Part shown: in pieces, positions 8,178 through 48,234 of the stretch
How the letters are laid out: every line of letters begins with the position of its first letter
Position numbering within the stretch: the first letter of the stretch is position 1
Origin: a virus
Direction: 5' to 3' (one strand)
DNA length: 64,000 nucleotides
IMG/VR virus record: IMGVR_UViG_3300017963_000242
Span: 1-64,000 of that record
Made by a program: the position numbers and the translations under genes
The notes under the pieces: generated by a model
The model's input: the letters and a program-made list of their open reading frames with translations, nothing else
Database searches by the model: none
Told to the model about the DNA's origin: nothing

Positions 8178-8325
8178 AGACTATCCTCCTACTAGTGGCG
8201 AATCGCCGCCAAATGTTTTATACAACATCACCGCCTCTCGTTGAGATAGTGCGATGGCCGCGCACTGGTCACTCAACGCGGCAGCGATTATTCTGCCCAC
8301 ATCATACCACCGCAGCGACTCGTTG

Positions 8326-27600: not shown

Positions 27601-27727
27601 GCGCCGACTTCATCTTTTCGCCCCAGGACGTCGCAGTTTTGATGCTCTGTCCCATAGCGTTATTAAACTGGTCTGAATCTAGGACTAGTCTTGAAACAAG
27701 TCTAGCAACTTCGATTGAACCGGCCAT
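24677..27727 (-). CDS. Tape measure protein
   Basis: 1016 aa helical A/L-rich with periodic aromatic repeats; after chaperones. Confidence 0.9.
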   Translation of the reverse strand: MAGSIEVARLVSRLVLDSDQFNNAMGQSIKTATSWGEKMKSALSTAVVTKGLGFLAQAAKSAAGGLVNTVKAGAGLPGIAAAFNRNAAQFGVNLSAMQRASGGTISEFEMMTQANVALTGAGQMLGKEFGKNLPTLLAGARAAAAATGGSAEFMFQSLVTGVKRSSPMLIDNTGIVLKMGEANEAMAAKVGKAVKDLTSEEKSVAILNATVEATNKLIAQTGGAGMTTSEKVAGLGAVIQNFKDQVAVGLSPVLGQATGILLKLANLVLPPLQDILVNKIAPAISVVLGLVEGWVSKFDTAAQATAQFVNFTTDGLGNMVPVIEDVGKSSVDKLVNKWSEMASRALKWGIQVVTEFASGMVQGAAAALTQAMQFIGGILQSWLAPSSPPKIMPNLDKWAQSSMNLYLHNMTQADFGILDTMQGPISTALSRLVDSGDMSEKGSAEMFRGLSEGLAKAAATGDMTDGIFKQLEKTTGAYGKDIAELAKRQFKLAAATKAVQEAEESLERARSAQKDAQDNVSKLADEYNKLLAAGADESVLAAKRAEFAEAEKALDLADDQVDATESQAEEAQKALSPLQEQVALQQKIIDQMFKMTEPMSEVTDSLTAAIGGLTDGLADGLTGELEPPEIPIPIFSGEGGIASSLSTAFENAKESIKEKLLGMFQPVIDEWTRLKEGPLAELQSTWETFTTTVREFWDEKVVPIIEEIKKFIPPEALQNLGKFAGVMGVVAVVAGILVGAILLLTNPIVLLIAGIAAIVVWGGQAWEMFKDLLDLSKELAIALKDKLVDKFNELASSVKEKVIDIFEKLRDFWRDHIEPKIEELRRLFEEVLVPALTKVYDFVKDSVMDIFEKLRDIWKDDIQPLLKTIGDTLEGSFLTAWEKISGAIKDTKDKVLDGLVETFENLKGLIKDTTDKIVKFIDKLKEWAKTKLPDWAQRHSPSPIEQMLTNTRDLMAELSRQELPGFGRAMSELSFPQIGQAGADNRITNNTLNVTTSATTSTYLQDYSELAALGAG

Positions 27728-28570: not shown

Positions 28571-29020
28571 CTAGGTGATCGCCAGCGTCGGCTTGCCCGA
28601 AATCTTGATTGTGAGTTCAGCAGTCAGCACATCGTCCATCGGGTCGTCTACGTCGAACCCGCTCACAAAGCCGTCGAACGTGAACGTAGCCGTCCCGCCG
28701 CAACCGTCTAGCTGCCACTGCCACGTAGCGAGCGTGCATTGCTCTGTCTCAAAGTCGGACAGCAGGCCCGTACCCGCCGTCTGCGCGTGCGTGGTATCAG
28801 CAATCGGATCCCAGGTCAGGCCGAACGAGATAGCGCCCGGGTCCACGCGCCCGCCGATGTACTCATTGTAGTATGTGGTCATACTGCGATCCGCAATCTC
28901 GATTTCATTGCGGCTAATAGACGGGCCGGACATGTCCCTAATCTTTGCGATGTTGGTATAGGAAGTGCCGCCTGCTGGATCCCAGCCAAGCGTTCCTAAG
29001 TGCCCCGGATGATTTGCCAT
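28571..29020 (-). CDS. Major tail tube protein
   Basis: GPSISRNEIE, DPGAISF, FDGFVSGF, IKISGKP. Confidence 0.85.
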   Translation of the reverse strand: MANHPGHLGTLGWDPAGGTSYTNIAKIRDMSGPSISRNEIEIADRSMTTYYNEYIGGRVDPGAISFGLTWDPIADTTHAQTAGTGLLSDFETEQCTLATWQWQLDGCGGTATFTFDGFVSGFDVDDPMDDVLTAELTIKISGKPTLAIT

Positions 29021-29067: not shown

Positions 29068-29679
29068 TTACCAGCGGCTTCTCCACCGCTGCCAAAAAAC
29101 TCGATTGTCCATTGAAAACCACGGCTCGTGTGGTTCGTGCAGTCCGTGGTCCACGTATACAGAAGGTATCCACAGCGCTCGTTTGTTATGGTCCCTCTGC
29201 GCTCTCCACTGCCAGTCTACGTCACTGCCATAGTGCCTGAACGTTTCATCAAGCGGACCAAGCGCCTGGATTGCCGCCCGCTTGACAACGAGACAAAAAC
29301 CCGCGCAATGGCTGACCACCTGCGGTTGGCGCTCGTCGTTTGGCCGTCCTGTATTCTGCGGCGCTGTTCTGCATGGTCCCGACGGCCCCGCGAACCAGCA
29401 ATCTGAGCGCTTCTCCAATTCGTCCCATAGCGTTGCCAACCATCCTATCCGAACGATACAGTCATCGTTCAGGATACACACGTCATCCGTCGCCGTCCAA
29501 CTCTGGTCCTGATTCTGTCGCGTCAACGGCAGGTGTCGATTCACGTTCCTCGTCCACCCGCTCCTGCTTTCGTCCACTGCAACCACGGCACGGACGTTTT
29601 CTAGTCCAGCCAGTAGCAAAGCCTGATTTCGCGCTTTCATCCCCATCCCCCGGTCCAGCGTCGGAACGATGATCAACAT
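29068..29679 (-). CDS. GT2-family (GT-A) glycosyltransferase
   Basis: IIVPT, ILNDDC (DxD-like), GPLDETF..YGSDVDW. Confidence 0.8.
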   Translation of the reverse strand: MLIIVPTLDRGMGMKARNQALLLAGLENVRAVVAVDESRSGWTRNVNRHLPLTRQNQDQSWTATDDVCILNDDCIVRIGWLATLWDELEKRSDCWFAGPSGPCRTAPQNTGRPNDERQPQVVSHCAGFCLVVKRAAIQALGPLDETFRHYGSDVDWQWRAQRDHNKRALWIPSVYVDHGLHEPHEPWFSMDNRVFWQRWRSRW

Positions 29680-30358
29680 GGTTATAGTGCCTCAGACCTT
29701 TCTCTAGCCAGTTCAATGCTGGCGTGATAACGCGCTTGTGCCCCGGTATATCCAGACCTTCATAGCAGTAGTCGTGTAGGTTGAGAAGCTCTGTGACCGG
29801 CTCTTCGAGCAGCTTGTCATAGTCCACCTGATAGACCATACCTGGAAAATTGCCAAGCTGGTACAGAAGCGCCTTGCGCCATTTTTCCATCAGCGCCCGC
29901 GCCTCGTCCTCTGTCATCGGCCAGCGTCCGTGATAGGCTAGTTCGGTGTGTCGCTTGAACGACTTGACGATGTTCTCAAAGTCTCGATGTGCCCAGACGA
30001 CACGCAGTTCGGTGTCTGTTTCCGCGAACAAAGGCCAGATGTGATTGAAGGTAAAGGCCATGCGAGGCCCCTTGACTCCAAATATCGGCGCGCGGCTGCA
30101 TTTGGCTATCAATCGACGATAGGCGTCAAGCTGTGTTGGCGTAGCATCCATCCAGCGGACGGTATACCTTTCGCCTCCGATTTGCTTGTTTATACGCTGC
30201 CACGCAAGCGATTCATAGTAGCCGTTTTCATTTAGGATGTCAGCCACCTGTAGACGTTCACCCATATTGACCCCAAGCCGGTGAAGGCTCCCAGCCAGTG
30301 CTGATGATCCGCTGCGCGGACAACTCAATATAAAAATTGCGCGTGACTTGTTCTTCAT
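29483..30358 (-). CDS. Sulfotransferase-family protein
   Basis: PSB-loop CPRSGSSALAGSL, GYYES, KGPR, VDYDKLL; 3' end overlaps next gene. Confidence 0.75.
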   Translation of the reverse strand: MKNKSRAIFILSCPRSGSSALAGSLHRLGVNMGERLQVADILNENGYYESLAWQRINKQIGGERYTVRWMDATPTQLDAYRRLIAKCSRAPIFGVKGPRMAFTFNHIWPLFAETDTELRVVWAHRDFENIVKSFKRHTELAYHGRWPMTEDEARALMEKWRKALLYQLGNFPGMVYQVDYDKLLEEPVTELLNLHDYCYEGLDIPGHKRVITPALNWLEKGLRHYNHVDHRSDAGPGDGDESAKSGFATGWTRKRPCRGCSGRKQERVDEERESTPAVDATESGPELDGDG

Positions 30359-30936
30359 ACCAAGTACCCTTCCCACTTCTTCGCCATCATCGGGTTTTGA
30401 ATCCCTTCTCGCTCCAATAGTGAAGCGGCTTGATGAAACGCTTGAAACACTGGCGGCATATTCATATCGTCCAGACAGATGACCCGCGCCGACCGAACTG
30501 CCATCACATCACAAAGCACTTCTGCGTGCTTGTGCAATCCATCCACCAACGCAAAGGCCCACTCGCGCCCTTGTAATGCTCGAATCGCTACCGGGCTTTG
30601 CGACTCTACTCTCAACACATCCAGCACGCCGTTCTCTCTCCACTTCTCTGTTCGCGCCTTGAACCTGCTGTACTCGTGCCCTTGACAGTTCTGCGTTCCT
30701 GGCGTCCACGGATCCACGACGAGCACGCGCCTGCCGTACCGCGCTGCAATCTTGCAGAACTCAACCGTTGAATCGCCTTCCATCGCGCCTATTTCTACGA
30801 TGTCTCCCGGTCCCGCCTCCACTGCGGCTTGCGCTGCTTGAATCCACCTGGCGCGGCGCTGTATCCTGTGGTCATCCGTGCCGGTGTCCATTGCCAGTAT
30901 CTCGCGTATGCGGTTGGTCAACTCGGCCTTGTCCAC
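30355..30936 (-). CDS. Class I SAM methyltransferase (Methyltransf_24-like)
   Basis: VEIGAMEGDS, VDPW, VDGLH, LDD. Confidence 0.8.
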   Translation of the reverse strand: MDKAELTNRIREILAMDTGTDDHRIQRRARWIQAAQAAVEAGPGDIVEIGAMEGDSTVEFCKIAARYGRRVLVVDPWTPGTQNCQGHEYSRFKARTEKWRENGVLDVLRVESQSPVAIRALQGREWAFALVDGLHKHAEVLCDVMAVRSARVICLDDMNMPPVFQAFHQAASLLEREGIQNPMMAKKWEGYLV

Positions 30937-31601
30937 CCGTCCCTCTTCTCACATTTCAAATTGATGCGGAACTTTTCCCAGTCGTAGTCGAGTGCTTCCA
31001 GTTCGTCTAGCAAGTCGTCTGTTGTCCGTCCGTGCTCGGCCAGCGTCGGACCGTGTATCTCGATGAACAGGAATGGCACGGTCTGAAACAGTTCAGCGCC
31101 TCCCTCCAAGATGTCTACCTCTGTTCCCTGCGTGTCCACCTTGACTAGCTGGACATCCGGCCTACCTGCTTCGTTCCACCACGTATCAAGCGTCGTGACT
31201 TTGACTGACTCTGTCTGAGACTCCACTTTCTTGTTCAGCGCCTCGTAAAAGTTTGGCCTATCCGCAATGCTGGCCCATCCCGCGATAGACGGGTCAACCG
31301 GGTATTTGAGCACTGCGTCTCCCTGGCTCGAACTCACGGCCAGCCGATGCAACTCAATGTCTACCTGGTTGACTTCTGCCATCTCTACCAGCGCGTCAGC
31401 GACCCGCGTCTGTGGCTCGAATGCCACGCACCGCGCATCCTCTACGCCCAGCAACGTGGCGATACACAGCGCCCCCACGTTTGCGCCCACGTCTACTAGC
31501 AGACCGCTCGGCGTCATCTTGGATACCATCCACTCGACGTTTGGCGGATTCCCAGCCAGCTTGTTCGGGCAGTATCGCAGTGCCTCTTCTATCCAGATCA
31601 T
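30918..31601 (-). CDS. FkbM-family methyltransferase
   Basis: VDVGANVG, AFEP, VTTLD, VKVDTQGTE. Confidence 0.85.
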   Translation of the reverse strand: MIWIEEALRYCPNKLAGNPPNVEWMVSKMTPSGLLVDVGANVGALCIATLLGVEDARCVAFEPQTRVADALVEMAEVNQVDIELHRLAVSSSQGDAVLKYPVDPSIAGWASIADRPNFYEALNKKVESQTESVKVTTLDTWWNEAGRPDVQLVKVDTQGTEVDILEGGAELFQTVPFLFIEIHGPTLAEHGRTTDDLLDELEALDYDWEKFRINLKCEKRDGWTRPS

Positions 31602-32350
31602 GCGCCCTTCTCCACAAGTTGTCCCTTCTCGGTCAGTTTCCAGGTCGCACTATTCAACGTCCCCGGCTTTTCAAATTCCACAAGCGCCTGTTGCCATATC
31701 GCTTGGTTGCGCATGACCTCGCCTTGCGGTTTGTGCTTCGCGTGCTGCTGATGGTATACAACCGTGAACCCTGTCGCGTCGATGATAGGCAGTTTCTCTT
31801 GCTTATCTGCCCAACTCACAATCCAGTTATCCCACGCTGTCCGGCCTACTCCGAACGGTGGAATGTCTCTCAGCCAGTCGCCGCGATAGCAAAACACGTC
31901 GATGCCTGAACGGGTATAGTCTGTAAATGGCAGGTCTTTTATCATGCCGTGCCAATCTTCAGAGAAGTCCAGTTCGTCGTCTACCTGGATATTCCGCCTA
32001 CGTGTGATGAGCAGAAAGTTGCTGAACCTATCTTCCACTGCCTGTACTGCTGTAGCGAACTGCGGTTCTAGGACGATGTCTGCGTTAATCAAGCAACGTG
32101 TGTCTCTTGACCTTGCCAGCTTGTGCGCACTGTCTATCACGTCTGGCAGCAATGGCGCTCCCTTTTCTGTTCGCCTCATTGGCATAAGCTGGATACCGTT
32201 CGCCTCAGCCTCTTCTGCTGCCCCAGGTTCGTCTTGTCCGAACCATACAATCTGAGCTTGTGGAAAGACCGTCTGCCATGACCGTACAGCGTTACGCTGG
32301 ATGTGCTCGAACTCTCCCGCAAACCCTTTGACGATGCTGTAAATCAGCAT
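31598..32350 (-). CDS. GT-A fold glycosyltransferase-like protein
   Basis: QRNAVRSW, LINADIVL, GRTAWDNW, HQQH. Confidence 0.65.
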   Translation of the reverse strand: MLIYSIVKGFAGEFEHIQRNAVRSWQTVFPQAQIVWFGQDEPGAAEEAEANGIQLMPMRRTEKGAPLLPDVIDSAHKLARSRDTRCLINADIVLEPQFATAVQAVEDRFSNFLLITRRRNIQVDDELDFSEDWHGMIKDLPFTDYTRSGIDVFCYRGDWLRDIPPFGVGRTAWDNWIVSWADKQEKLPIIDATGFTVVYHQQHAKHKPQGEVMRNQAIWQQALVEFEKPGTLNSATWKLTEKGQLVEKGA

Positions 32351-33474
32351 AGCTCTGGCCCCTTGCCAAAGCGATTGAACCTATCTCCGTATATGCCCCA
32401 CCAATCCCAGATAGTTTTCCCGGTTGTGTCCATGTACAATATCGCATCCATCCCCTCGAATGGCATTGCCAGAACGACGCTGTCACACTGCTCTATCAGT
32501 TCCTCGAATGTCTCACACGTGCTATACAGATTCGGGTCGTATGTCTCGGCATTCAGCAGTTCGGCCAATCTGGCCCCTGGCGATTCTGTGCCATCGACGA
32601 CGCCCGGTTTGAACGATAATCCAGCTACGCCAAACCTTTGATACTGGCACAAGTCTGCCTCTCTGACCAATTGCGCCATGTGTATCATCTGTGACCGATT
32701 CCAGCACGCCACGCTCTCGGTCATCACCGGAGCGACATTTGCTTGCTGCAATGCATTGCTGAAAGCCAAGTCGTCTCTCGGAAAACACGGTCCCCCGTAT
32801 GGCGGTCCGGCCTTGAAATATCTTGGACCGATGCGCGAATCTTGACCGATGGCGTTCAGCACATCTTCGGCGTCTGCTCCATCTGTACGCTGGCACAACC
32901 AGGCTATCTCATTTGCCTTTGCCAGCTTTGAGGTAATGGCTGTGTTCAATCCAATTTTGGCAATCTCGGCGCTTGGAATGCTCATAAACGTTGGCTTTGT
33001 CCAGCACGCCCACCTGTAAAAACTTTCTAGGTGGCTGCGCTCCAACTCTGTTGCGCACCCTGCTACAATAAACTCTGGATGTGCAAAGTCCTCTTGCACG
33101 TTGCCCTGGCGCACAAACTCCGGTACGTAGGCAAAGCCGAAATCCGCATGCGCGTACATTCCGCTCTGTTCCAATGCTGCCCGGATAGGCCCTTCCGTGT
33201 CGCCCGGATTGACCGTGCTGGATATGATGACCATCCTCCAACAAGACAGGTCTATCTCTGAGCAAGCCGCGACCACGTTCGCTATATCATAGCTGCCATC
33301 TGGCAGGCTCGGCGTATTCACGATGACGATCACTATGTCCGCGTCTTTGGTTGTCTCTGCCGTCGATTTGCATTCTGGCGCGACATCTGCAATGCGCACA
33401 GGATAAGAACGCCCGATGTGCTGCGCCATCACACTGCCTAACTTGCCCATCCCGCCTACCACTGTCACGTTCAC
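32344..33474 (-). CDS. UDP-glucose/GDP-mannose dehydrogenase family protein
   Basis: GGMGKLG, VNTP, SSTVNPG, PEF, AEIAK, GGPCFPRD, GLSFKP; GTG start at 33474 probable. Confidence 0.85.
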   Translation of the reverse strand: MNVTVVGGMGKLGSVMAQHIGRSYPVRIADVAPECKSTAETTKDADIVIVIVNTPSLPDGSYDIANVVAACSEIDLSCWRMVIISSTVNPGDTEGPIRAALEQSGMYAHADFGFAYVPEFVRQGNVQEDFAHPEFIVAGCATELERSHLESFYRWACWTKPTFMSIPSAEIAKIGLNTAITSKLAKANEIAWLCQRTDGADAEDVLNAIGQDSRIGPRYFKAGPPYGGPCFPRDDLAFSNALQQANVAPVMTESVACWNRSQMIHMAQLVREADLCQYQRFGVAGLSFKPGVVDGTESPGARLAELLNAETYDPNLYSTCETFEELIEQCDSVVLAMPFEGMDAILYMDTTGKTIWDWWGIYGDRFNRFGKGPELC

Positions 33475-34256
33475 AAAGAGTACCTTTCTGGATAGTTCTT
33501 GATATATGGTCGCGTTTCGACTCTTGCCCAACCATCCATCACGCTTCCGATGTCTATGGCAATTCCGCCCTGTTGTTTTATCACATCACAGTAGACCTTA
33601 CCATTTGGACCAGCGCCTACAAAGAATAAATCGCCTAGATTTACATCTCGTTCTAGTTCCTCAATCAATTCATTATGTCGCTGAGGATAATGCTGCGCTA
33701 TAGGCTTTACATACTTTGCCTCACTTGGGACTGGATACCAGCGAACGTCTTTGACGCCTATAGCGCATAAGGTTTGCCTTACGTCAAAACATCCGATAAC
33801 TGATATTGCATCCTGTTCAGAGATTAGATTTCTCCACCAACCTTGACGCTGTATTTCTCTTGTTACTGTGCAATGCGCAATTTCATGTTTGATAAGGTCT
33901 AGCTTGCCTATGAGTTGCGAGACAAGCACCCGATGCATCTTGTTCTTTGCCTTTTTCTTTGGCAATCCCAAGATATTCGCGTTTTGGGCTGCGGTGACAA
34001 CCTGTGCTTTTAATGGCAACATGACCTTGCCGTCAAGGGGTCTATATTTTCCGTACCATATCAATAATGAATGCTGCAATTCGTTGACATCATGAAAATC
34101 TGGATAGCCCAGTAGCCGCGCCTCTCCATCACCTAGACGAATGAGTGAGAATGGTCTGCGCTCTGTGACGTGTTCACAAATTATATCCATCACGTCTTTC
34201 GCGGTTAGCATCCATTTGTCTTTTATTTTTCTGGTCGCGTCGTTAGTCTGCGCCAA
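33471..34256 (-). CDS. GT-D fold glycosyltransferase-like protein
   Basis: PFSLIRLGDGE, VGAGPNGK, AIDIGS. Confidence 0.7.
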   Translation of the reverse strand: MAQTNDATRKIKDKWMLTAKDVMDIICEHVTERRPFSLIRLGDGEARLLGYPDFHDVNELQHSLLIWYGKYRPLDGKVMLPLKAQVVTAAQNANILGLPKKKAKNKMHRVLVSQLIGKLDLIKHEIAHCTVTREIQRQGWWRNLISEQDAISVIGCFDVRQTLCAIGVKDVRWYPVPSEAKYVKPIAQHYPQRHNELIEELERDVNLGDLFFVGAGPNGKVYCDVIKQQGGIAIDIGSVMDGWARVETRPYIKNYPERYSL

Positions 34257-34932
34257 CCCTTCCCTCTCGCTCGTACACTGTCAGTTCGTGATTATCTATC
34301 GTATACCCGTATCGCTTCATCTCTCCTGTCAAATCACCTAGCAATCGCTCTGGAAGCTGTGTTAGCTCGAATCCTTTTGGTGATGCGAAACATCTCGTAT
34401 TGCACGTCCTGTCATTGTAGATCGCCCGCTCCTTGTAAGCGATGTCCAGTTTTTCCAACAGTGATTTAGCATCGTCCTCAATCCTGTGCGTTGCGTCAGC
34501 GTGAGGCACAATGCGCCTATTCCATTCAATCCAGAAATAGGCCGCACGCGCTGGACCTGTCTTGAGATCAAATAGCTCTGGTATAGTCTGTCGTACCACC
34601 TTCTGCCATTTGCGGTATCGCCCGGTATTTGTCAAAAGCTGCGTTCGTAACAATGACCTAATGACATTGCGCGGATGCCGAACGACATGCACCACAATTA
34701 TTTGTCTTAGCCATTCACTGCCTAGATATGGTACTGCTAACCACGAACACTCGGCCTGATAACCCTTTCTGGTCCATTCATCGTGCCTTGTGATTTGCTC
34801 GTCTGGATTTTCTATGCTTTCTGGTCTAAATATCTTCTCGTGTGTACATAGAATATCCACCGAATTCATGACACGCGCCATATAACCTGTTCCACAACGT
34901 CCTGTGCCCGTGAATAACCATTTCATCACCAC
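34243..34932 (-). CDS. Sulfotransferase-like P-loop protein
   Basis: TGTGRCGTGY, THEKIF, HVVRHP...S. Confidence 0.65.
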   Translation of the reverse strand: MVMKWLFTGTGRCGTGYMARVMNSVDILCTHEKIFRPESIENPDEQITRHDEWTRKGYQAECSWLAVPYLGSEWLRQIIVVHVVRHPRNVIRSLLRTQLLTNTGRYRKWQKVVRQTIPELFDLKTGPARAAYFWIEWNRRIVPHADATHRIEDDAKSLLEKLDIAYKERAIYNDRTCNTRCFASPKGFELTQLPERLLGDLTGEMKRYGYTIDNHELTVYEREGRVGAD

Positions 34933-35588
34933 GAGTAGCCGTATCGTTCTGCTATTCGCTCTATGCTTGCTCTGATGTCCAGGTCCATGACCTTTTTCGG
35001 ATTGAACTGGTACTGCGGTTTCTTTTCTCTGTCCGGCCTATGCCGGTTGATTCCGCGTTTCTGGTATACCGGCTCGCTCGCTTTGATGCTCAGTCTCAGT
35101 CCGCGCTCTTGCAACAGCGCAAGCAGGTCCAGAGGGTCAGCATCGTCTACCTTCCACGTGATGTGATTGCTTGCCGCTAGTTTTAGCTCTATCATCTGAT
35201 TCCAGAATACATAGCGGTATGCGAGCCCATCCCATCGCTTGCCGTATTCCAGCAGCCTCGGACACCACGCCGCCGCGAATAGCCAGTACCGCCCTGCCCC
35301 TGTCGGAACCCTGCTCATAGTCGAGATGACCTTTGCCGGATGGCGAATCAGGTGAACGATAACCGCATCTCGCAACTCTGGTCTGTCCAGATAGGGCGCT
35401 GCAAGCCAGCTTGACTCAGCCGGGCGGCACTTGTCATCGTTTAGGTTCTCTAGCGCCTTGGTGTAGCCAAATGGACCGAACACCTTTTCGTGCCCGCACT
35501 GCAAGCCAGCCTGTGAGACATATTGCGCATAGGCTCCCGTTGCACACGCACCTGTACCTGTGAATAGTAGTTTAAGCTTTTGTGTCAT
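34926..35588 (-). CDS. Sulfotransferase-like P-loop protein (paralog)
   Basis: TGTGACATGAY, GHEKVF, SSWLA, HLIRHP...S. Confidence 0.6.
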   Translation of the reverse strand: MTQKLKLLFTGTGACATGAYAQYVSQAGLQCGHEKVFGPFGYTKALENLNDDKCRPAESSWLAAPYLDRPELRDAVIVHLIRHPAKVISTMSRVPTGAGRYWLFAAAWCPRLLEYGKRWDGLAYRYVFWNQMIELKLAASNHITWKVDDADPLDLLALLQERGLRLSIKASEPVYQKRGINRHRPDREKKPQYQFNPKKVMDLDIRASIERIAERYGYSW

Positions 35589-36334
35589 CTGCCTGCCAAC
35601 TCCACGCGAATGTAAGACCTCGACGGTACACCTGCCAGCAAGTCGAAAATCGAACCGATGTCCAGAGCCACCGCGCCGTCTCGCTTGGCTGCATTGCAGT
35701 AGCACTTTCCATTTGGCCCAGCACCGACTAACACCACGTCACCCGGTCCTACGTCCAGTTCTCGCAATATTCGGCTATGCGCGTTTGGATAGTGCTGCTC
35801 GCTTGGCTGGCCCATCTGCGCCTCTTGAGGTACTCTGATCCAGCGCACCTCTTCTATGAGCAAGTCGTTCTTGAATATGTCTCGCACGTCCCGGCACGTG
35901 ATGAGCGTTACCGATGACAATGCGCGTAGCAGGCTATACAGCAAGCCTTCCGAGTAGAGCCACCTGTGAACGCCACAATGGCAAGTATCGCCCCGCGCCA
36001 GCCCTTCCACCATCGCTAGATGATGCATCAGCTTGTAGAATTTGTTCCGGCTTTGCTGCTCGGTGCTTGGCAGTCCCAGCACATCAGCCCCCTGGCAAGC
36101 CGTGATTAGCTCGGCGCGTAACCGGCTGATACCATCCCTGTCCGGCTTCATTGTTCCGTACCAGTATTTGAGCGACTGGTTCAGGTCTGGAAACGAGATA
36201 TACGATGGATAGCCTATCAGCCGCGCCTCTCCATCGCCCAATCGAATGAGCGAAAATGGTTGACGTTCCTCTATTGCCTGTGCAATCTTGGCGTATACGC
36301 CTTGTGTATCGAGATGCGTCATCGCTGTATCCAT
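35585..36334 (-). CDS. GT-D fold glycosyltransferase-like protein (paralog)
   Basis: PFSLIRLGDGE, VGAGPNGK, ALDIGS. Confidence 0.7.
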   Translation of the reverse strand: MDTAMTHLDTQGVYAKIAQAIEERQPFSLIRLGDGEARLIGYPSYISFPDLNQSLKYWYGTMKPDRDGISRLRAELITACQGADVLGLPSTEQQSRNKFYKLMHHLAMVEGLARGDTCHCGVHRWLYSEGLLYSLLRALSSVTLITCRDVRDIFKNDLLIEEVRWIRVPQEAQMGQPSEQHYPNAHSRILRELDVGPGDVVLVGAGPNGKCYCNAAKRDGAVALDIGSIFDLLAGVPSRSYIRVELAGR

Positions 36335-36367
36335 TTGGGATAATTTGGGATAATGTACGGCTGTACG
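36333..36367. repeat. 35-bp dispersed inverted repeat, copy A
   Basis: Reverse complement matches 48200-48234 with 2 mismatches. Confidence 0.85.
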
Positions 36368-36371
36368 CGCA

Positions 36372-36620
36372 TCACTCGCGCACCTCTACCGAGCACGTCC
36401 CGGTTGCGATTGCCAGTAGCTCGACAACCTCAAACGCACTGACCAACGACCGATCTCCACCGAACGCGGCCCACGCCTTGCCGTCATCTGTCCACAGCGA
36501 CAACTCGCCGTTTTTAGTGCTCTCTGGCTTGCCTGTGTAGACACGAATTGGCACGCAGTCCGGCAACTGTGCGATGTGTCCGCAAAGTCGCTTGACCAAC
36601 TGACCGTATTGCTTTGTCAC
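36372..36620 (-). CDS. Hypothetical protein
   Basis: Coupled ORF in operon. Confidence 0.45.
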   Translation of the reverse strand: MTKQYGQLVKRLCGHIAQLPDCVPIRVYTGKPESTKNGELSLWTDDGKAWAAFGGDRSLVSAFEVVELLAIATGTCSVEVRE

Positions 36621-37420
36621 GGTTTCAGCGTCCTTTCCACTTCGCTCCAGAACATCTCTACCCCGCGCCCAATGTCATCGGGTCTTTTCTCTATCCATTC
36701 CAGCGCGCCTATCCATCCGTCTACCATCAGTTCGCAGCCTGCCGCCCACGCCTCCACAACCGTTCTGCCAAACGGCTCCTTGTGTGTCGGATAGAAGATA
36801 AACTGCTTGGCTGCCCCATAGATGCTTGGCAAAACGTTGTATGGCACTGGTCCGTGGTATCTGGCAAGCCCGCCTAACTCTGCAAAATTGATGTAGCGAA
36901 TGCTTATGTCGCCATAGATGTCAACCGGCTCTTGCTCGCGCCACGCCCAGTCCAGTACCGTGTGCAGCCCCTTGCCCGGATCGGCACGTCCAACCCAGAT
37001 CGTGCCCTGGCGCTCCTCGTCCGGCAGTGCTGCGTCTCGGAACATATCCAAATTGACCGGCGGCGGCACGACTGCGTATTCGTTGTCGTACCAGTGCTCA
37101 TAGTTGTCTGCCTGTAGCTGAGACGAGAACAAGAGCAGTTTTGCATGGTCCAGCAGCCAGCGCCGCAAGACGATGCTACCCGACCACCACGAGTCACGGT
37201 TTTGCTTGATGACCGGAACCTTTTCCAGAACCTCTATCCACTGCGATGGATAGGCCGTGCAGTGCTGGATGATGAAAGCCTCGATGTCCTCCGGCGGGCG
37301 CTTGTTGGGTGGACACAATACGATGTCTGCCCACTCTGGCGCGCCCGCGCGTAGCGTTCGCTCTGATAGTTCTGCTCCGCCTACTATGCCCAAATCGTCG
37401 TGAAGCCAGCCGATTTTCAT
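36617..37420 (-). CDS. GT4-like (GT-B) glycosyltransferase
   Basis: GGAE, VGR...KG, EPFGRTVVEAWAAGC. Confidence 0.8.
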   Translation of the reverse strand: MKIGWLHDDLGIVGGAELSERTLRAGAPEWADIVLCPPNKRPPEDIEAFIIQHCTAYPSQWIEVLEKVPVIKQNRDSWWSGSIVLRRWLLDHAKLLLFSSQLQADNYEHWYDNEYAVVPPPVNLDMFRDAALPDEERQGTIWVGRADPGKGLHTVLDWAWREQEPVDIYGDISIRYINFAELGGLARYHGPVPYNVLPSIYGAAKQFIFYPTHKEPFGRTVVEAWAAGCELMVDGWIGALEWIEKRPDDIGRGVEMFWSEVERTLKP

Positions 37421-37433
37421 TCTGTGAGCCTTT

Positions 37434-37964
37434 CTAGTATTGCCCCGGCTTGGTCCAGCCTAACTGAATTTCTATCCAGTCTCTCGTAATACCATCTAGT
37501 TGTATCTGGTCGCGGTTTTTCACATACCATCCTACTGTATCTTGGTTTCCGTATGCACGTCCAGCGCCGCGCCAGTCTGCCAGCATTTCCTTGCGATACC
37601 GATCTGGCATCGGAAGCGGAACAATTTTATCACTACCCCTCGCGCTGTCCATCGTCAGTAACTATCGCTGCCAATGATGTTTGTTTCTGTGCTGGTGATT
37701 TAGCCAAGCACGGTTAAATGCCTCTACAACGTATTTCGGTTTGTACTCGTCATCTCTCGGATATGGACCGTAAAAATAATATGCGTATGGTCCGAACTCA
37801 CTCGGCAGAAACTTGCTCAAATCGTGAACGATCCCCCGCCACGGAATTCCTAGCTTGCAGCATTCCAAGAATACAAACCACTTGTGCCGCAAAACTGCCC
37901 AAAGGTATTTAGCATACATATTGACATACATATTGACATTCCCTTCTTTCCATCGAATCACCAC
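37434..37964 (-). pseudogene. DUF5662-like HD-type protein interrupted by an in-frame TAG
   Basis: HKWFV, HDLSKF, HQHRNKHHWQR*LLTM...EMLADW in one frame; TAG at 37662-37664. Confidence 0.65.
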
Positions 37965-39121
37965 ATTTCACTAGAAACGCGGTCAAGTAGCGGCAGCCAT
38001 TTCCTCTCAAACAAGTCCGGCCAGTGATATTTTCTCCGTACCTTGTGGACTGCTTGCACCGTCGCTCTTTCGTCCGGTAGAGCATTATAGGCTGTAGCCA
38101 GTGCTTCCGAGATGAGCGGTACGGATGCCAGCGACCAGTAGTAGTCGAGTTGTGGAACATAGAACGATTGCAGCGGCTTGATACACTGGCCTAGCAAGGT
38201 GTTCTCTGTCATCGCTGTACAGTCCTGCGTGATGACCGGCGTCCCGCACGCTTGCGCTTCTATCAGTGGCAGTCCAAAGCCCTCTCCCATCGACGGAGCC
38301 AAGAGCACGTCAAACGCTCGATACAGGTTAGCCATCTGGTCCTCTTGGACACCGATAGCAATGTCTGCCTCAGCCGTGATTTGTACCACGCCTCTTGACA
38401 GTCCTAACCGCTCTTGCAACCGATAGATATTCACGCCTTCGTGCGTCCCGTATGGCACTGTAGTCGTGTGGAGATGTAGAATCGTATTGCGCGGAAACCG
38501 CCTATGAAAGTTCGCAAACCCGGCTAGTAGTTCAGGCCAGCTTTTGCGACACGGCCAGCCTTTGTTTGCTGCCACGACGCCGACAATGAACGCATCCGGT
38601 GGAAAGCCTAGCTGCTTACGCGCCTCTTCTCTGTCGCCCGGATGATACACGTCACAGTCAATGCCTAGCTGAATGCACTCGGACGGTATGCCGACCTTGC
38701 CTAGCTCGGCTTGTCCGAACTGCGACATCGCAACTACCCAGTCGGCCTTTTTAGTCGATGCCTGTACCCGCTCTGGGACCGGCACGCCGTCAATTGGAAC
38801 CCATGCCAGCCACGGCACGCCTATGTCGTCGCGTGTCGATTCAGGCAGTGGGAACATGTCGTAAAGCGATAGGATCAAGTCTGCCTTAAAGTGCTTTGCG
38901 TACTCTCCTATTAGCTTCATATTGAATGGGTTGCCGCGCATTGGATAGATGTCGATGCCTTGCCAGTTTATCGCTTGGCCTGATAGACCGGAGTTGGCGA
39001 ACACGGCGACTTCATAGCCCGCCTCTTTGAGCAGCGGTATAAGCGCACGTATTTGAGTGCCGTACCCCGTCTGTTCGTGTACAGAGTTGGAGAATATACC
39101 TATTCGTTTCAGCTTACCCAT
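37958..39121 (-). CDS. GT4-family glycosyltransferase
   Basis: TGYG, RKSWP, EGFGLPLIEAQACGTP. Confidence 0.9.
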   Translation of the reverse strand: MGKLKRIGIFSNSVHEQTGYGTQIRALIPLLKEAGYEVAVFANSGLSGQAINWQGIDIYPMRGNPFNMKLIGEYAKHFKADLILSLYDMFPLPESTRDDIGVPWLAWVPIDGVPVPERVQASTKKADWVVAMSQFGQAELGKVGIPSECIQLGIDCDVYHPGDREEARKQLGFPPDAFIVGVVAANKGWPCRKSWPELLAGFANFHRRFPRNTILHLHTTTVPYGTHEGVNIYRLQERLGLSRGVVQITAEADIAIGVQEDQMANLYRAFDVLLAPSMGEGFGLPLIEAQACGTPVITQDCTAMTENTLLGQCIKPLQSFYVPQLDYYWSLASVPLISEALATAYNALPDERATVQAVHKVRRKYHWPDLFERKWLPLLDRVSSEMW

Positions 39122-39196: not shown

Positions 39197-39604
39197 TTAG
39201 ACCTTCGTCAGACTCCCTGATGTCGTATATGTCCACTGAGTTGGAAGCGGATCGCCTGTAGAATTAGGCCATAACTCCCAAGGCTCTGGGCCTCTGTTTT
39301 TCTGACAGTCACAGTAATGAATATCTGGCGACCATATTCGCTTGCACAATGGACACTGCCAGCCTTGTCGTTGCGTTGGTTCTCCGAAGGTGCTCACAAG
39401 AGCTACTTTATCCGTGCTATCTTCTACCACAGTTTCCATTCGCATTCTCTTTCTATGCCCGCAAGTCCGGCTGTATGCCGATACGCACGCTCGCCCTCCC
39501 AACAAACCATTTTCCCGAAGCGACGCCTGCACTTTGATAGACGGCGCTTCCACCACCGCCCGACGCCCTCCCGTTCCCATTTCTGGCTGAACGAAACATA
39601 CCAC
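39197..39604 (-). CDS. Small zinc-ribbon protein (true start probably near 39450)
   Basis: GWQCPLCKRIWSP....CDC. Confidence 0.5.
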   Translation of the reverse strand: MVCFVQPEMGTGGRRAVVEAPSIKVQASLRENGLLGGRACVSAYSRTCGHRKRMRMETVVEDSTDKVALVSTFGEPTQRQGWQCPLCKRIWSPDIHYCDCQKNRGPEPWELWPNSTGDPLPTQWTYTTSGSLTKV

Positions 39605-39629: not shown

Positions 39630-40031
39630 TTATGTATCCGTAGCCCTCTCGATTTGCACGTCTACTATCACCCGATGCTGGTTCAGTGGCACAGAGTAGC
39701 TATCTGTTCTATTCTGCACAAAGCATATTCCAAGTGGACACCCAGTTCCTTTATATCCGTCCCAAGCATCCACTAGTTGGTCTGCCAGCGCATTGGCCGC
39801 GTCCGACGTGGCTGCATAGCAGTCAAACTGAATGCGGTACTTTGCTCTACCCGGCGCACTGGTCCTGTCCCTAGCATAGTCGTTCGATGCTGAGATGACC
39901 CGATAGCGTAGACACGGGACTGTGTAGTTCTCAGGCAAACGCACCGGATAACAGCGCTTGGCTATCAGCGCCGACAGGCCCGCGTGACCACCTGTTACGC
40001 AGCGGTCAAAGATGTCGCTCCGTAGCGTCAT
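39630..40031 (-). CDS. Tail terminator/completion protein (DUF3168-like)
   Basis: RCYP..LP, RIQFDCYA. Confidence 0.75.
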   Translation of the reverse strand: MTLRSDIFDRCVTGGHAGLSALIAKRCYPVRLPENYTVPCLRYRVISASNDYARDRTSAPGRAKYRIQFDCYAATSDAANALADQLVDAWDGYKGTGCPLGICFVQNRTDSYSVPLNQHRVIVDVQIERATDT

Positions 40032-40395: not shown

Positions 40396-41523
40396 CTACC
40401 GATTATGCCCCACATGGATGTAGTCCACGTCCACCGTCTTGGACGCCGTGCCATCGCCGCACGCGATGATCGTCGGATACAGGTTCGTGTTCGGCGTAAC
40501 TCCGCCACCCGATAGCGTGGCTTTCAGTACATCATCCACATAGAACGTACACGTCCCACCGCCGACACTGACCTCGATACGAAGTTTCTGATACGTGTCT
40601 GCCGTTGGCCCCGATGCCATCGGATCATTGGTCGTGTCCTCGACCGTGCTATCCACGGCACACGCGTGCCAACTACCCGCTGCGGTAGCTGCTGCATCGT
40701 ACAGAAACACCACCGCGTCATTCGCAGCAGCAGCATATGCCGTACCGGTGCAAGTGTATGGTTCCTCCAGGGTAGTCACGTCCGTCAGGCCAAAGTTAAC
40801 CCTCGCGTTTGCGATAGCGGTATTGATGTGAAGTCTTGCCTCTACAAACAGCCCGCCGCTATCCGCCTGAACTGGGACTGCGCCAGCAAATTGACTCCCA
40901 TCCCGTGCTGTCGTTCCATCATCGTCGCCTGTGACCAACTGGAGAACCCCATTTTCTTGCGCGCTGATAGCTGGATCTGCTGCCGTACCAGATGCGCCAG
41001 AGTTCAGCACCCACGGCGTGTAGGTCGCTGCGATGGTCTGGTAGTTAAAGTCGTCAAAGATTTCCCAAAAGTAGGACCGGTCGATTCCTGCTTGAGGTTC
41101 TAGCGGCTTGCCGACCTCGACACGCTCTACTCCATCCGATGTATTGAATGCGATATACTGATTTGATCCTTGCATGACGCGGAATGCGCCGCTATCGTTG
41201 TCCGCTACTGACAAGTCGACGCCGGTCGTTCCGTCGTGCAGGATATTCGCGTCCTGGTCCGCGCCAAAATAAACGCCTTTGCTATCCGACAGATAGACAC
41301 TACCCCATTCTGCGCTCGTGCTGCCCAAGTCGGACCCGCCGCCCGTTGCGGGCAGAATGTCCTTCGTATTCGCAATCGTCAAGTCGTCGGACAACGTTAC
41401 CGTGCCGTCGAATGTGACTGCGCTTTGCGGATTGTGTAGCGTATCAACCAGATCGTCGTTCTGGTCGGTTGGGTTCCGCTCCCAAAAGTTGTTTTTCAGT
41501 GCCGCACTTGTTCGTGCAGTCAT
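40396..41523 (-). CDS. Virion fibre/decoration protein (head or neck appendage)
   Basis: G/T/D/A-rich; C-terminal FDDF...VDVDYI lectin-like domain; in head-tail module. Confidence 0.55.
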   Translation of the reverse strand: MTARTSAALKNNFWERNPTDQNDDLVDTLHNPQSAVTFDGTVTLSDDLTIANTKDILPATGGGSDLGSTSAEWGSVYLSDSKGVYFGADQDANILHDGTTGVDLSVADNDSGAFRVMQGSNQYIAFNTSDGVERVEVGKPLEPQAGIDRSYFWEIFDDFNYQTIAATYTPWVLNSGASGTAADPAISAQENGVLQLVTGDDDGTTARDGSQFAGAVPVQADSGGLFVEARLHINTAIANARVNFGLTDVTTLEEPYTCTGTAYAAAANDAVVFLYDAAATAAGSWHACAVDSTVEDTTNDPMASGPTADTYQKLRIEVSVGGGTCTFYVDDVLKATLSGGGVTPNTNLYPTIIACGDGTASKTVDVDYIHVGHNR

Positions 41524-41533
41524 GTCCCTACTC

Positions 41534-42058
41534 CTATAATTTCAACCTCGAACCGCCGCCTCTTATGCTCACGGCCTTTGGTTGTCTCTTTACCATCTCG
41601 TGACGCAGTTTTTTGCCCATCGCGTGAGCTGCTTCGCTTTTATGTGAATCTATCGCAGGTCGCAAGTACGGACGTGCTGGGATTGTGTACGTCGTGGATA
41701 GTGCCAGCGCCCGCCACATGCCCTCATTCGTTTCGTACCACTTTGCCCAGAAGAATTTTCGCTGCAGCTCCGTGATAACCTGATTCTCTAGCCCGTACTC
41801 GTGAGCGGCAGAGTATACGATGTCAAACTCGACATTCGCTGCATACTGGTTGACCATCACGATCTTGCCGCTGTCCTCCAACGCGCCCGTCTGATTCTCA
41901 AAGTTCGCGCGTACATTGGCCTGGGCGGCTTCTAGAATGACCTCAGCACCAGCTTTGACCGCTGTCACTGTGAGCTTTCCAGGCGCTTGGCTAGCCATGT
42001 ACCTGAAATAGCCGGTCAATTCTTTGACGCCGGTTACTCGCTCTTTAGCGTGCGCCAT
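41534..42058 (-). CDS. HK97 gp10-like neck protein
   Basis: TGALEDS, HEYG, PARPYLRPA. Confidence 0.8.
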   Translation of the reverse strand: MAHAKERVTGVKELTGYFRYMASQAPGKLTVTAVKAGAEVILEAAQANVRANFENQTGALEDSGKIVMVNQYAANVEFDIVYSAAHEYGLENQVITELQRKFFWAKWYETNEGMWRALALSTTYTIPARPYLRPAIDSHKSEAAHAMGKKLRHEMVKRQPKAVSIRGGGSRLKL

Positions 42059-44200: not shown

Positions 44201-44208
44201 TGTATCTC

Positions 44209-44670
44209 CTACACAATCCGCACGCGGAGTCTGGTGTCCGTTGCACACACCAAATCCTCGTGAGGCACACCGACGATGATCAGGTCCGCAGACCCGCTCG
44301 TGCTAACGCGCAGCGTTCCATCGCCGTTAGAAACCAAGCGCGAACGACCACGAACCGCCGTGCCAGTCGCCAGGTACATGTACAGCAAGTCGCCCGGTAG
44401 CGCATAGATGTAGCGCACGGTGTCCGCCGTCAGATACGGCGAGTCGATGGCCGCTGCGGCATTGTCGTCGTCGAACGGGTTTTCGATAGCAACCATTCGC
44501 TGATGAAAGCCAGTCCCGGTTGCATGCGCGACCAGATGCTCGTTTGCATCGTACTCAATGAGATAGCCGGGGATAATCGTCCCCGACCCGTAATCCTCTT
44601 GCACGCGGCCCTCAATATTGAACGGCACGGCGGTGCTGAGAACAATGGTATGATCCGTTGTGCTCGACAT
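44209..44670 (-). CDS. Capsid decoration (cement) protein
   Basis: Between protease and MCP; IIPGYL, LVSNGDGTL. Confidence 0.7.
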   Translation of the reverse strand: MSSTTDHTIVLSTAVPFNIEGRVQEDYGSGTIIPGYLIEYDANEHLVAHATGTGFHQRMVAIENPFDDDNAAAAIDSPYLTADTVRYIYALPGDLLYMYLATGTAVRGRSRLVSNGDGTLRVSTSGSADLIIVGVPHEDLVCATDTRLRVRIV

Positions 44671-48199: not shown

Positions 48200-48234
48200 C
48201 GTACAGCCGTACATTATCCCAAGTTATCCCAAGT
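48200..48234. repeat. 35-bp dispersed inverted repeat, copy B
   Basis: CGTACAGCCGTACATTATCCCAAGTTATCCCAAGT. Confidence 0.85.

What the first reader, a model, noticed from the sequence alone, without database searches (positions are those of the whole stretch)
29068..39121. Ten-kb glycan synthesis, sulfation and methylation cluster embedded between tail terminator and tail tube genes
Seen: six GT-like genes covering GT-A (2), GT-B (2) and GT-D (2) folds, three sulfotransferase-like genes, two methyltransferases and an NDP-sugar dehydrogenase. They mostly overlap at start/stop codons and are co-oriented with virion genes. Known: some actinobacteriophages glycosylate virions using a few GTs encoded among structural genes. 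Inference: late expression points to a complex sulfated, O-methylated, uronic-acid-containing virion glycan rather than lysogenic surface conversion; host-surface or DNA modification remain alternatives.
Basis: partly seen in the sequence, partly recalled or inferred. Interest (0 to 1): 0.8.

Follow-up and report, generated by a model that had tools for sequence, protein, structure and literature searches.

The report
Phage tail-operon glycan-building gene cassette
An uncultured 80-kb tailed phage carries, between its tail-terminator and tail-tube genes, a 10-kb block of sugar-transferring, sulfating and methylating enzymes. It is the largest known version of a cassette inherited by a whole phage clade, and it most likely sugar-coats the phage particle, though no chemistry has been done.

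Summary
Window 29068-39121 (minus strand) holds 15 ORFs. All are soluble, and most junctions are 1-7 nt start/stop overlaps. The block lies between the tail terminator (39630-40031) and a lambda-type tail tube gene (28571-29020).

New here: about 40 related metagenomic contigs carry a cassette at the same site.
- In the 13 loci complete from terminator to tube, GT4 is always present, the short GT-B is in 12 and GT2 in 8.
- The middle is variable and filled only with glycan-tailoring enzymes (methyltransferases, sulfotransferases, GT-D, GT-A).
- Relatives' cassettes span 2.5-5.5 kb, against 10.6 kb here.
- Forty-eight more distant tail-tube relatives have no cassette.
- Cassette-bearing tail tubes form one strongly supported branch.

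The best explanation is cytoplasmic glycosylation of virion proteins with a variable glycan, here possibly sulfated, methylated and containing uronic acid. It is analogous to, but not homologous with, the mycobacteriophage Corndog/Che8 systems. The target, expression timing and chemistry are untested.

The scan has noted comparable phage cassettes with sulfotransferases on other DNA.

The parts
39630..40031 (-). Tail terminator gene (upstream flank of the cassette)
   Evidence: phrog_347 tail terminator, E 1.6e-9. Orthologues lie directly upstream of GT4 in relatives.
39197..39604 (-). 135-aa ORF with a CxxC...CxC motif and a Ser/Thr-rich C-terminus. Absent from relatives; coding status uncertain.
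   Evidence: No family hit; sequence. Relatives go straight from terminator to GT4.
37958..39121 (-). GT4-family GT-B glycosyltransferase, the universal core gene of the cassette
   Evidence: PF13692 and PF00534 above cut-off. EX7E motif in the sequence. Present in 13 of 13 complete related loci. 38% identical to a GT beside the capsid gene of Microcystis phage Mae-JY09.
37434..37964 (-). DUF5662 gene interrupted by a single in-frame TAG at 37662-37664. It is an insertion specific to this phage.
   Evidence: The two ORFs match PF18907 positions 2-87 and 97-151. In-frame stop seen. TAG ends 38 other genes. Absent from relatives.
36617..37420 (-). Short (267 aa) GT4-like GT-B glycosyltransferase, second core gene
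   Evidence: The profile of 19 orthologues hits tetrahydrobiopterin glucosyltransferase and other GT4 structures, E 9e-11. EX7E motif conserved. Present in 12 of 13 complete related loci.
36372..36620 (-). 82-aa ORF of unknown function, overlapping the upstream stop by 4 nt
   Evidence: No family hit; junction.
36334..36367 (+). 34-bp repeated element directly before the ATG of the first GT-D gene, at the border between core and accessory genes. Two further copies exist in the genome.
   Evidence: Copies at 36334-36367 (+), 48200-48233 (-) and 70075-70108 (+), with 0-2 mismatches; sequence.
35585..36334 (-). GT-D fold glycosyltransferase 1
   Evidence: PF22882 E 1e-22; NF040628 E 1.3e-14; GDGE (DXE) motif in the sequence.
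34926..35588 (-). Sulfotransferase-fold protein, paralogue 1 (start taken at the ATG that overlaps the upstream stop)
   Evidence: 35% identical to paralogue 2. Shares the GTG.C.TG loop and the RHP...I.S motif. Start chosen.
34243..34932 (-). Sulfotransferase-fold protein, paralogue 2
   Evidence: AF2 pLDDT 90.6. Foldseek top hits are Cpz8, SgdX2, schistosome SULT, 3-OST and the CurM sulfotransferase domain. Profile hits to PDB sulfotransferases. Some homologues carry PF13469 or PF17784.
33471..34256 (-). GT-D fold glycosyltransferase 2
   Evidence: PF22882 E 2e-19; 41% identical to GT-D 1.
32344..33531 (-). NDP-sugar 6-dehydrogenase, most like UDP-glucose dehydrogenase. The probable true start is the GTG at 33474.
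   Evidence: TIGR03026 at 194 bits against a cut-off of 189.8. PDB 3vtf E 9e-39. GGPCFPRD catalytic-Cys motif.
31598..32350 (-). GT-A fold glycosyltransferase (250 aa) with no Pfam family. In other viral contigs it is linked to the dehydrogenase and to FkbM.
   Evidence: AF2 pLDDT 94. Foldseek hits AvpGT, WrtF, chondroitin and heparosan synthases. Co-occurs with UGDH and/or FkbM homologues in L045, L049-L053.
30918..31601 (-). FkbM-family methyltransferase
   Evidence: PF05050 E 7.5e-16; TIGR01444 E 8.8e-26. Fused to GT4 in relative L137.
30355..30936 (-). Methyltransf_24 class-I methyltransferase
   Evidence: PF13578 E 2.2e-7, above cut-off. Orthologues in L001, L008, L011, L012 and L028.
29483..30376 (-). 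Sulfotransferase (Sulfotransfer_3). Its 3' tail overlaps the next gene by 197 nt.
   Evidence: PF13469 E 2e-8, above cut-off. PRSGSS and RD....S motifs. Orthologues in at least 15 related loci.
29068..29679 (-). Small GT2-family GT-A glycosyltransferase, the last cassette gene before the tail tube
   Evidence: 70 homologues, some carrying PF00535 or PF13641. Invariant DD motif. Lies directly upstream of the tube gene in at least 25 loci.
28571..29020 (-). Tail tube protein (downstream flank and candidate acceptor)
   Evidence: PF16461/PF16460. Cassette-bearing tubes form one branch with 100/99 support. G109-T110 is invariant in this clade only.

Best explanation
The block is a phage-encoded cytoplasmic glycosylation cassette expressed with the tail genes. 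It most likely builds an O-linked oligosaccharide on virion proteins, with the tail tube as first candidate and capsid or other exposed proteins also possible.

Shown:
- enzyme identities;
- all proteins are soluble;
- genes are tightly coupled inside the late operon;
- a clade of phages inherits a cassette at this exact site;
- the middle of the cassette varies but always encodes glycan-tailoring enzymes.

Inferred:
- GT4, the short GT-B and GT2 lay down a core glycan.
- In this phage the two GT-D enzymes and the 250-aa GT-A extend it.
- The dehydrogenase makes a UDP-uronic acid for the 250-aa GT-A.
- FkbM and the Methyltransf_24 enzyme O-methylate sugars.
- The three sulfotransferase-fold enzymes add sulfate from host PAPS.
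- The variable middle acts as a glycan-type locus, so related phages display different coats. A plausible purpose is to mask particles from host recognition or to tune adhesion.
For: Enzyme families.

No hydrophobic segment is long enough for a membrane helix; the highest-scoring one is the SAM-binding motif of FkbM.

Nine to ten of 14 junctions are start/stop overlaps. Promoter- and terminator-like sites are no more frequent than in shuffled sequence.

Synteny:
- About 40 related contigs hold a cassette between terminator and tube.
- In the 13 loci complete from terminator to tube, GT4 is in 13, the short GT-B in 12 and GT2 in 8.

The variable genes are sulfotransferases, methyltransferases, GT-D and GT2. 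One relative fuses GT4 to FkbM.

Forty-eight cassette-less tube relatives have only tail-completion and HK97-gp10-type genes upstream, with no GT among 96 ORFs.

In the tube tree the 16 cassette-bearing tubes are one side of a branch (support 100/99, stem length 0.74).

Precedents and analogues:
- Corndog's O-methyltransferase plus three GTs lie between its portal and protease genes. They are reported to glycosylate capsid and tail tube (PMC11600133, PMC12363180, both citing Freeman et al. 2023).
- GT4 homologues sit beside capsid or portal genes in cultured phages Mae-JY09, phiPsal1 and S-CBS4.

The 94%-complete genome has no tyrosine integrase and no ThyA-like gene.
Against: - There are no expression data: no RNA run holds the sequence.
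- The acceptor is unknown. Tube and capsid have no Ser/Thr-rich tail or extension, and the clade-specific tube residues are only what a long branch would give.
- There is no BLAST-level homology to the Corndog enzymes.
- Peripheral GT4 and GT2 enzymes that act on lipid-linked sugars also lack membrane segments, so solubility does not exclude envelope targets.
- The phage has no APS kinase and does have two PAPS-reductase-family ORFs, so sulfation depends on an unknown host.
- The nearest structural matches of some enzymes act on small molecules (Cpz8, SgdX2, tetrahydrobiopterin glucosyltransferase).
Confidence: 0.55

Rival explanations
1. The enzymes remodel host envelope glycans late in infection, acting on lipid-linked precursors at the cytoplasmic face of the membrane. 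Possible purposes are blocking superinfection or stopping progeny from sticking to debris.
For: The GT4 and GT2 families include many peripheral enzymes of LPS, teichuronic-acid and exopolysaccharide synthesis (weak NCBIfam hits). The dehydrogenase-plus-GT-A pairing is typical of uronic-acid polysaccharides. Bacterial homologues of the sulfotransferase-like family occur in Planctomycetota and filamentous cyanobacteria.
Against: No initiating phosphoglycosyltransferase, flippase, polymerase or ABC exporter, and no membrane protein at all, appears in this cassette; none was detected in relatives either. Long-term fixation inside the tail module of a whole clade, with GT2 coupled to the tube gene, is not expected for a host-surface moron. 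No tyrosine integrase was found.
Confidence: 0.2
2. The cassette makes a free or non-covalently bound product, either a soluble sulfated oligosaccharide or a glycosylated small molecule, rather than a protein-linked glycan.
For: The best structural matches of the sulfotransferase-like paralogues are natural-product enzymes Cpz8 and SgdX2. The short GT-B is closest to tetrahydrobiopterin glucosyltransferase. GT2 has a weak hit to the mycofactocin glycosyltransferase MftF.
Against: These matches are at fold or family level only, with TM about 0.5 and low identity. No scaffold-building genes (PKS, NRPS, pterin synthesis) lie in or beside the cassette in any relative. The tail-operon position is unexplained.
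Confidence: 0.1
3. The glycosyltransferases hypermodify phage DNA, as in T4-like glucosylation of modified bases.
For: Phage GT-B and GT-A enzymes do glycosylate DNA (Pyle et al. 2024, seen only as a citation in PMC12619734).
Against: The genome has no ThyA-like hydroxymethylase. I know of no precedent for sulfation or methylation of DNA-linked sugars. The cassette sits in the tail module and follows the tail-tube lineage.
Confidence: 0.05

Closest known systems
Mycobacteriophage virion glycosylation (Corndog gp35-38, Che8 gp110, Myrna; Freeman et al. 2023, read here only through PMC11600133 and PMC12363180)
   Same: Phage-encoded soluble glycosyltransferases with an O-methyltransferase, embedded in the virion structural operon. 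In Corndog they lie between portal and protease. They are reported to glycosylate capsid and tail tube.
   Different: No BLAST-level homology. The insertion site differs (terminator/tube). The window has 15 ORFs against 4 genes in Corndog. It adds three sulfotransferase-fold genes, a sugar dehydrogenase and GT-D enzymes. The probable host phylum is different. No Ser/Thr-rich tail or extension was found on tube or capsid. Nothing has been tested experimentally.
GT4/GT2/methyltransferase cassettes beside head genes of cultured siphoviruses (Pontimonas phage phiPsal1, Synechococcus phage S-CBS4, Microcystis phage Mae-JY09)
   Same: Their GT4 is a true homologue of the window's GT4: 38%, 31% and 27% identity. 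In phiPsal1 and S-CBS4 it is followed by a second glycosyltransferase and a SAM methyltransferase inside the structural module; in Mae-JY09 the downstream genes are annotated hypothetical.
   Different: They are placed after the capsid or portal gene rather than before the tube. They have 1-3 genes and no sulfotransferase or dehydrogenase. I found no paper that tests their function.
Bacterial surface-polysaccharide gene clusters (O-antigen or capsule type)
   Same: Conserved flanking genes with a variable centre of transferases and tailoring enzymes. A UDP-sugar dehydrogenase is paired with a GT-A, and FkbM/RfbT-type sugar methylation is present.
   Different: No lipid-carrier initiation, flippase, polymerase or export genes and no membrane proteins. 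The cluster lies in a phage tail operon.
Serine-rich-repeat adhesin O-glycosylation (GtfA/GtfB plus the GT-D enzyme dGT1 of streptococci; from general knowledge)
   Same: A GT4-type enzyme, a second GT-B and GT-D fold enzymes act in the cytoplasm on a protein. The GT-D DXE motif is present.
   Different: Only weak, generic similarity to GtfA (TIGR02918 E 1.7e-4, far below cut-off). No serine-rich acceptor was found.

Membership tests
Mycobacteriophage-type virion glycosylation system | Phage-encoded glycosyltransferases with a methyltransferase inside the virion structural operon | tested here: met
   The cassette lies between terminator and tube, co-oriented, with overlapping genes.
Mycobacteriophage-type virion glycosylation system | Sequence homology to the Corndog/Che8 glycosyltransferases | tested here: not met
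   tblastn of all cassette proteins against Corndog 14-44 kb found nothing below E 0.008. Che8 was not tested.
Mycobacteriophage-type virion glycosylation system | Glycans demonstrated on capsid and tail-tube subunits | not testable with these tools
   Needs virion mass spectrometry.
Mycobacteriophage-type virion glycosylation system | Acceptor segment (C-terminal) on capsid or tube | tested here: inconclusive
   No Ser/Thr-rich tail. Clade-specific G109-T110 and S/T at positions 6 and 84 of the tube are only leads.
PAPS-dependent sulfotransferase superfamily | Family or fold match plus 5'-phosphosulfate and 3'-phosphate binding motifs | tested here: met
   29483-30376: PF13469 above cut-off, with PRSGSS and RD....S motifs. 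Paralogues: fold hits to sulfotransferases and the motifs GTGRCGTG and RHP..VI.S. Activity and donor were not tested.
UDP-glucose/GDP-mannose dehydrogenase family | Three-domain architecture, curated family score and catalytic cysteine | tested here: met
   PF03721, PF00984 and PF03720. TIGR03026 at 194.1 against a cut-off of 189.8. GGPCFPRD motif. The substrate sugar is not determined.
GT-D fold glycosyltransferases (DUF1792-like) | Family match and DXE metal-binding motif | tested here: met
   PF22882 at 81 and 70 bits against a cut-off of 27. GDGE motif in both copies.
GT4 retaining GT-B glycosyltransferases | Family match and EX7E motif | tested here: met
   37958-39121: PF13692 and PF00534 above cut-off. 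36617-37420: profile hit to GT4 structures. EX7E motif in both.
Lysogenic-conversion glycan modification (GtrABC-type) | Membrane-bound GtrA/GtrB/GtrC-like proteins near an integrase in a temperate phage | tested here: not met
   No membrane segment in any cassette protein. No PF00589 integrase in the genome. Serine recombinases were not searched.
Phage DNA glycosylation (T4-type) | A pathway making hydroxymethyl-pyrimidine acceptor bases | tested here: not met
   No PF00303 family member in the 94%-complete genome.

The most novel reading that the evidence does not exclude
A clade of uncultured phages, probably of Chloroflexota, carries a heritable 'glycan-type locus' in its tail operon. This member uses it to coat its tail tube with a sulfated, O-methylated, uronic-acid-containing glycan that resembles a glycosaminoglycan. 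That would be the first sulfated glycan on any phage particle. The variable centre would work like a serotype locus for virions.
Probability: 0.3. Interest if true: 0.85.

Novelty: new variant of a known kind. Interest (0 to 1): 0.62.

Why it matters
Phage-made virion glycans have so far been shown only in a few mycobacteriophages. They affect how particles are recognised there.

This locus suggests the trait is older and wider than that. A whole environmental phage clade has kept a cassette in its tail operon and diversified its tailoring enzymes, as bacteria diversify surface polysaccharides. If the sulfotransferases act on the virion glycan, phage particles could carry strongly anionic, glycosaminoglycan-like coats. 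That would bear on adsorption, aggregation on marine particles and evasion of host receptors or defences.

The comparison also gives concrete things to test: a three-gene minimal cassette (L010, L009), a GT4-FkbM fusion, and a clade-specific Gly-Thr in the tail tube.

The sulfotransferase-like family found here occurs in at least 84 viral contigs, including giant ones, next to other glycan genes. Viral glycan sulfation may therefore be common and unstudied.

Tried and rejected
- **Phage collection:** no near-identical DNA in the phage collection. Neither the 375-aa protein (40396-41523) nor GT2 matched any protein there.
- **RNA:** no RNA holder is listed for the cluster, so expression timing could not be examined.
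- **Independent assembly:** the two DNA runs gave contigs of identical lengths and are probably one data set, so they are not independent confirmation.
- **Genome collection:** a scan with the GT2 profile found no prophage copy, so it gave no host assignment.
- **N-terminal extension:** the idea that cassette-bearing tubes have an extra N-terminal segment was rejected. Cassette-less tubes are the same length, only divergent.
- **Ser/Thr-rich acceptor tails:** none were found in any structural protein.
- **Profile against PDB:** profiles of the 250-aa GT-A and of GT2 gave nothing by sequence. The fold search was needed for the 250-aa protein.
- **Freeman et al. 2023** is not held in the library. 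It is cited only through papers that describe it.
- **TAG recoding** as the reason for the split DUF5662 gene was rejected, because TAG ends 38 other genes.

Full report
**Setting.** The window is the first 64 kb of a single 79.8-kb virus record rated 94% complete. The late operon runs on the minus strand. In order it holds:
- large terminase, 55594-56934;
- portal, 51698-53995;
- protease/scaffold, 44674-46128;
- major capsid protein, 43163-44248;
- Neck1/tail completion, 41534-42058;
- a 375-aa variable protein, 40396-41523;
- tail terminator, 39630-40031;
- the block under study;
- a lambda-type tail tube protein, 28571-29020;
- assembly chaperones G/T;
- tape measure, 24677-27727.

**Observation.**
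- Pfam gives GT4 (37958-39121), two GT-D proteins (35585-36334 and 33471-34256), Sulfotransfer_3 (29483-30376), FkbM (30918-31601) and Methyltransf_24 (30355-30936). It also gives the three domains of a UDP-glucose/GDP-mannose-type dehydrogenase (32344-33531).
- The dehydrogenase passes the curated TIGR03026 cut-off. It is closest to UDP-glucose 6-dehydrogenases in the PDB and keeps the catalytic-cysteine motif.
- The 203-aa protein next to the tube gene has 70 homologues, several carrying GT2 Pfam domains.
- The 267-aa protein is a compact GT4-like GT-B. A profile of 19 orthologues hits GT4 structures at E 9e-11, and the EX7E motif is conserved.
- The 250-aa protein had no family. Its AlphaFold model (pLDDT 94) matches GT-A glycosyltransferases, among them chondroitin and heparosan synthases.
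- The two unannotated paralogues at 34926-35588 and 34243-34932 are 35% identical. They fold as sulfotransferases: pLDDT 90.6, with top hits Cpz8, SgdX2, schistosome SULT, 3-OST and CurM ST. They carry motifs that look like the two PAPS-binding loops.

- a DUF5662 gene cut by one in-frame TAG;
- an 82-aa ORF;
- a 135-aa ORF.

None of the 15 products has a membrane-type hydrophobic segment. Nine to ten of the 14 internal junctions are 1-7 nt start/stop overlaps. From 36334 to 29068 there is no intergenic DNA at all. Promoter- and terminator-like sites are not enriched over shuffled sequence.

**Comparative evidence, the main new result.** Searches with the GT2 family and with a tail-tube profile returned about 40 related contigs from IMG/VR and JGI metagenomes. 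Their structural proteins are 30-75% identical to the window's, and a cassette sits at the same place.

Thirteen loci, including the window, are complete from terminator to tube. Among them:
- GT4 is present in 13;
- the short GT-B is present in 12;
- GT2 is present in 8, always directly before the tube gene and sometimes overlapping its start.

The minimal form is just these three genes (L010, L009). Between the short GT-B and GT2 the content varies. Every variable gene that could be named is a glycan-tailoring enzyme:
- Methyltransf_24;
- other class-I methyltransferases;
- one or two sulfotransferases;
- a GT-D-like protein (weak match, below the Pfam cut-off);
- a GT2;
- a homologue of the 250-aa GT-A.

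In L137 and L138, GT4 is fused to an FkbM methyltransferase in one ORF, which ties the methyltransferase to the same pathway. The distance from terminator to tube is 2.5-5.5 kb in relatives and 10.6 kb here, so this phage has the largest version seen.

The 48 more distant tube relatives have the canonical order. Of the 96 ORFs immediately upstream of their tube genes, 35 are Tail_completion_gp17, 28 are HK97-gp10-like and none is a glycosyltransferase. In a maximum-likelihood tube tree, the 16 cassette-bearing sequences are one side of a branch with 100/99 support and a long stem of 0.74. That fits a single acquisition followed by vertical inheritance. One caveat: only the best 80 of 200 tube matches were retained.

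**Sub-modules.** Homologues of the 250-aa GT-A in unrelated viral contigs are repeatedly next to homologues of the dehydrogenase and/or FkbM (L045, L049-L053). The window has the same three genes in a row. I infer that the dehydrogenase feeds a uronic acid to this GT-A and that FkbM methylates the product. This is an inference from linkage and from the glucuronosyl-transferase-containing structures among the fold hits.

The sulfotransferase-like paralogue family has at least 84 members in IMG/VR, including contigs of 200-570 kb. Among the 130 ORFs immediately flanking them, the named ones include:
- methyltransferases, about 11;
- GT2, 8;
- UDP-galactopyranose mutase, 6;
- GT1, 5;
- Fringe-like proteins, 4;
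- other sulfotransferases, 3;
- capsid proteins, 2.

Bacterial members are mainly from Planctomycetota, filamentous cyanobacteria and Nocardioides. Viral proteins annotated as sulfotransferases already exist in databases, for example in Synechococcus phage S-SCSM1 and several giant viruses. The three exact phrases searched ('virus-encoded', 'viral' and 'phage-encoded sulfotransferase') occur in no held paper.

**What it most likely does.** The closest experimentally grounded analogue is mycobacteriophage virion glycosylation. Corndog's O-methyltransferase and three tandem glycosyltransferases lie between its portal and protease genes. They are reported to modify capsid and tail tube (PMC11600133, PMC12363180, both citing Freeman et al. 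2023, which I could not read).

The window's enzymes show no BLAST similarity to Corndog's, so this is analogy and not membership. True homologues of the window's GT4 sit beside the capsid gene in cultured phages Mae-JY09 and phiPsal1 and just after the portal gene in S-CBS4. In phiPsal1 and S-CBS4 they are followed by a second GT and a methyltransferase.

Four things make glycosylation of virion proteins the best-supported reading (confidence 0.55):
- all enzymes are soluble;
- the genes are translationally coupled within the tail operon;
- the cassette is fixed at one site across a clade;
- the genome lacks a tyrosine integrase and a hydroxymethyl-pyrimidine pathway.

The tube is my first candidate acceptor because the cassette abuts it and follows its lineage. 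G109-T110 is invariant in 30 of 30 cassette-clade tubes and present in 7% of 45 others. Positions 6 and 84 are Ser/Thr mainly in the cassette clade. These are leads only, since any long branch produces such differences.

**Weaknesses.**
- No RNA data exist.
- No Ser/Thr-rich tails were found on structural proteins.
- The donor PAPS must come from an unidentified host. The phage has no APS kinase but has two PAPS-reductase-family ORFs outside the window.
- Peripheral GT4 and GT2 enzymes of envelope pathways are also soluble, so a host-envelope target keeps about 0.2.
- A free or small-molecule product (0.1) and DNA glycosylation (0.05) are less likely, for the reasons given under rival explanations.

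**Novelty and score.** The kind of system, a phage-encoded virion glycosylation cassette in a structural operon, is known. Four things are new:
- the site and the clade-wide inheritance;
- the architecture of conserved flanks with a variable centre;
- the size of this member;
- its content, namely three sulfotransferase-fold genes, a sugar dehydrogenase and GT-D enzymes.

The scan has already noted comparable cassettes with sulfotransferases on other DNA (e1-6002036, e1-3415700, e1-3274165). I did not test those. I rate this a new variant of a known kind, interest 0.62.

Noticed in passing
window 37434-37964 (-): A DUF5662 gene, inserted between the two core GT-B genes only in this phage, is interrupted by one in-frame TAG (37662-37664). 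TAG is an ordinary stop in 38 other genes. It is therefore a fresh pseudogene, a split gene or a read-through site.
   Followed up: partly
L141:4155-6602 and L142 (IMG/VR relatives): The GT4 orthologue carries an in-frame insertion of about 430 aa with intein hallmarks: first residue Cys, last residues His-Asn, next residue Cys. It sits exactly inside the EX7E catalytic motif.
   Followed up: partly
L137:2907-4904 and L138: GT4 is fused to an FkbM methyltransferase in a single 665-aa ORF. In these relatives the short GT-B and GT2 are missing.
   Followed up: partly
window 29483-29679 (-): The 3' end of the sulfotransferase gene overlaps the 5' end of GT2 by 197 nt in another frame. The overlapped tail is low-complexity. 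Overlaps of 35-190 nt recur in relatives (L001, L006, L008).
   Followed up: partly
window 36334-36367 (+), 48200-48233 (-); genome 70075-70108 (+): A 34-bp element (two TTGGGATAA repeats, then two TGTACG repeats) lies directly before the ATG of the first accessory gene, antisense to it. That is the border between the conserved core and the expanded centre. Assembly-graph branches in the source reads start at its edges.
   Followed up: partly
L054-L132 (IMG/VR) and L210-L273 (genomes): The sulfotransferase-like GTGRCGTG family is widespread in viral contigs, including ones of 200-570 kb, and in Planctomycetota, filamentous cyanobacteria and Nocardioides. In viruses it usually sits among glycan genes.
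   Followed up: partly
genome 69165-69632 and 72345-72821 (+), beyond the window: Two PAPS-reductase-family ORFs (PF01507 above cut-off) occur in a phage that also encodes three sulfotransferase-fold proteins but no APS kinase. Whether they bear on sulfate-donor supply or on DNA modification is unknown.
   Followed up: no
window 40396-41523 (-): A 375-aa protein lies between Neck1 and the tail terminator. Its roughly 45-aa N-terminus is conserved and its C-terminal part is variable, with a ConA/LamG-like fold by Atlas structure (TM 0.5-0.6). It is replaced by 286-768-aa proteins in relatives and is probably a neck or side fibre.
   Followed up: partly
L145:3040-3477 and 8001-8459: One relative has two tail-tube-like genes, one upstream of the terminator and one after the cassette.
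   Followed up: no
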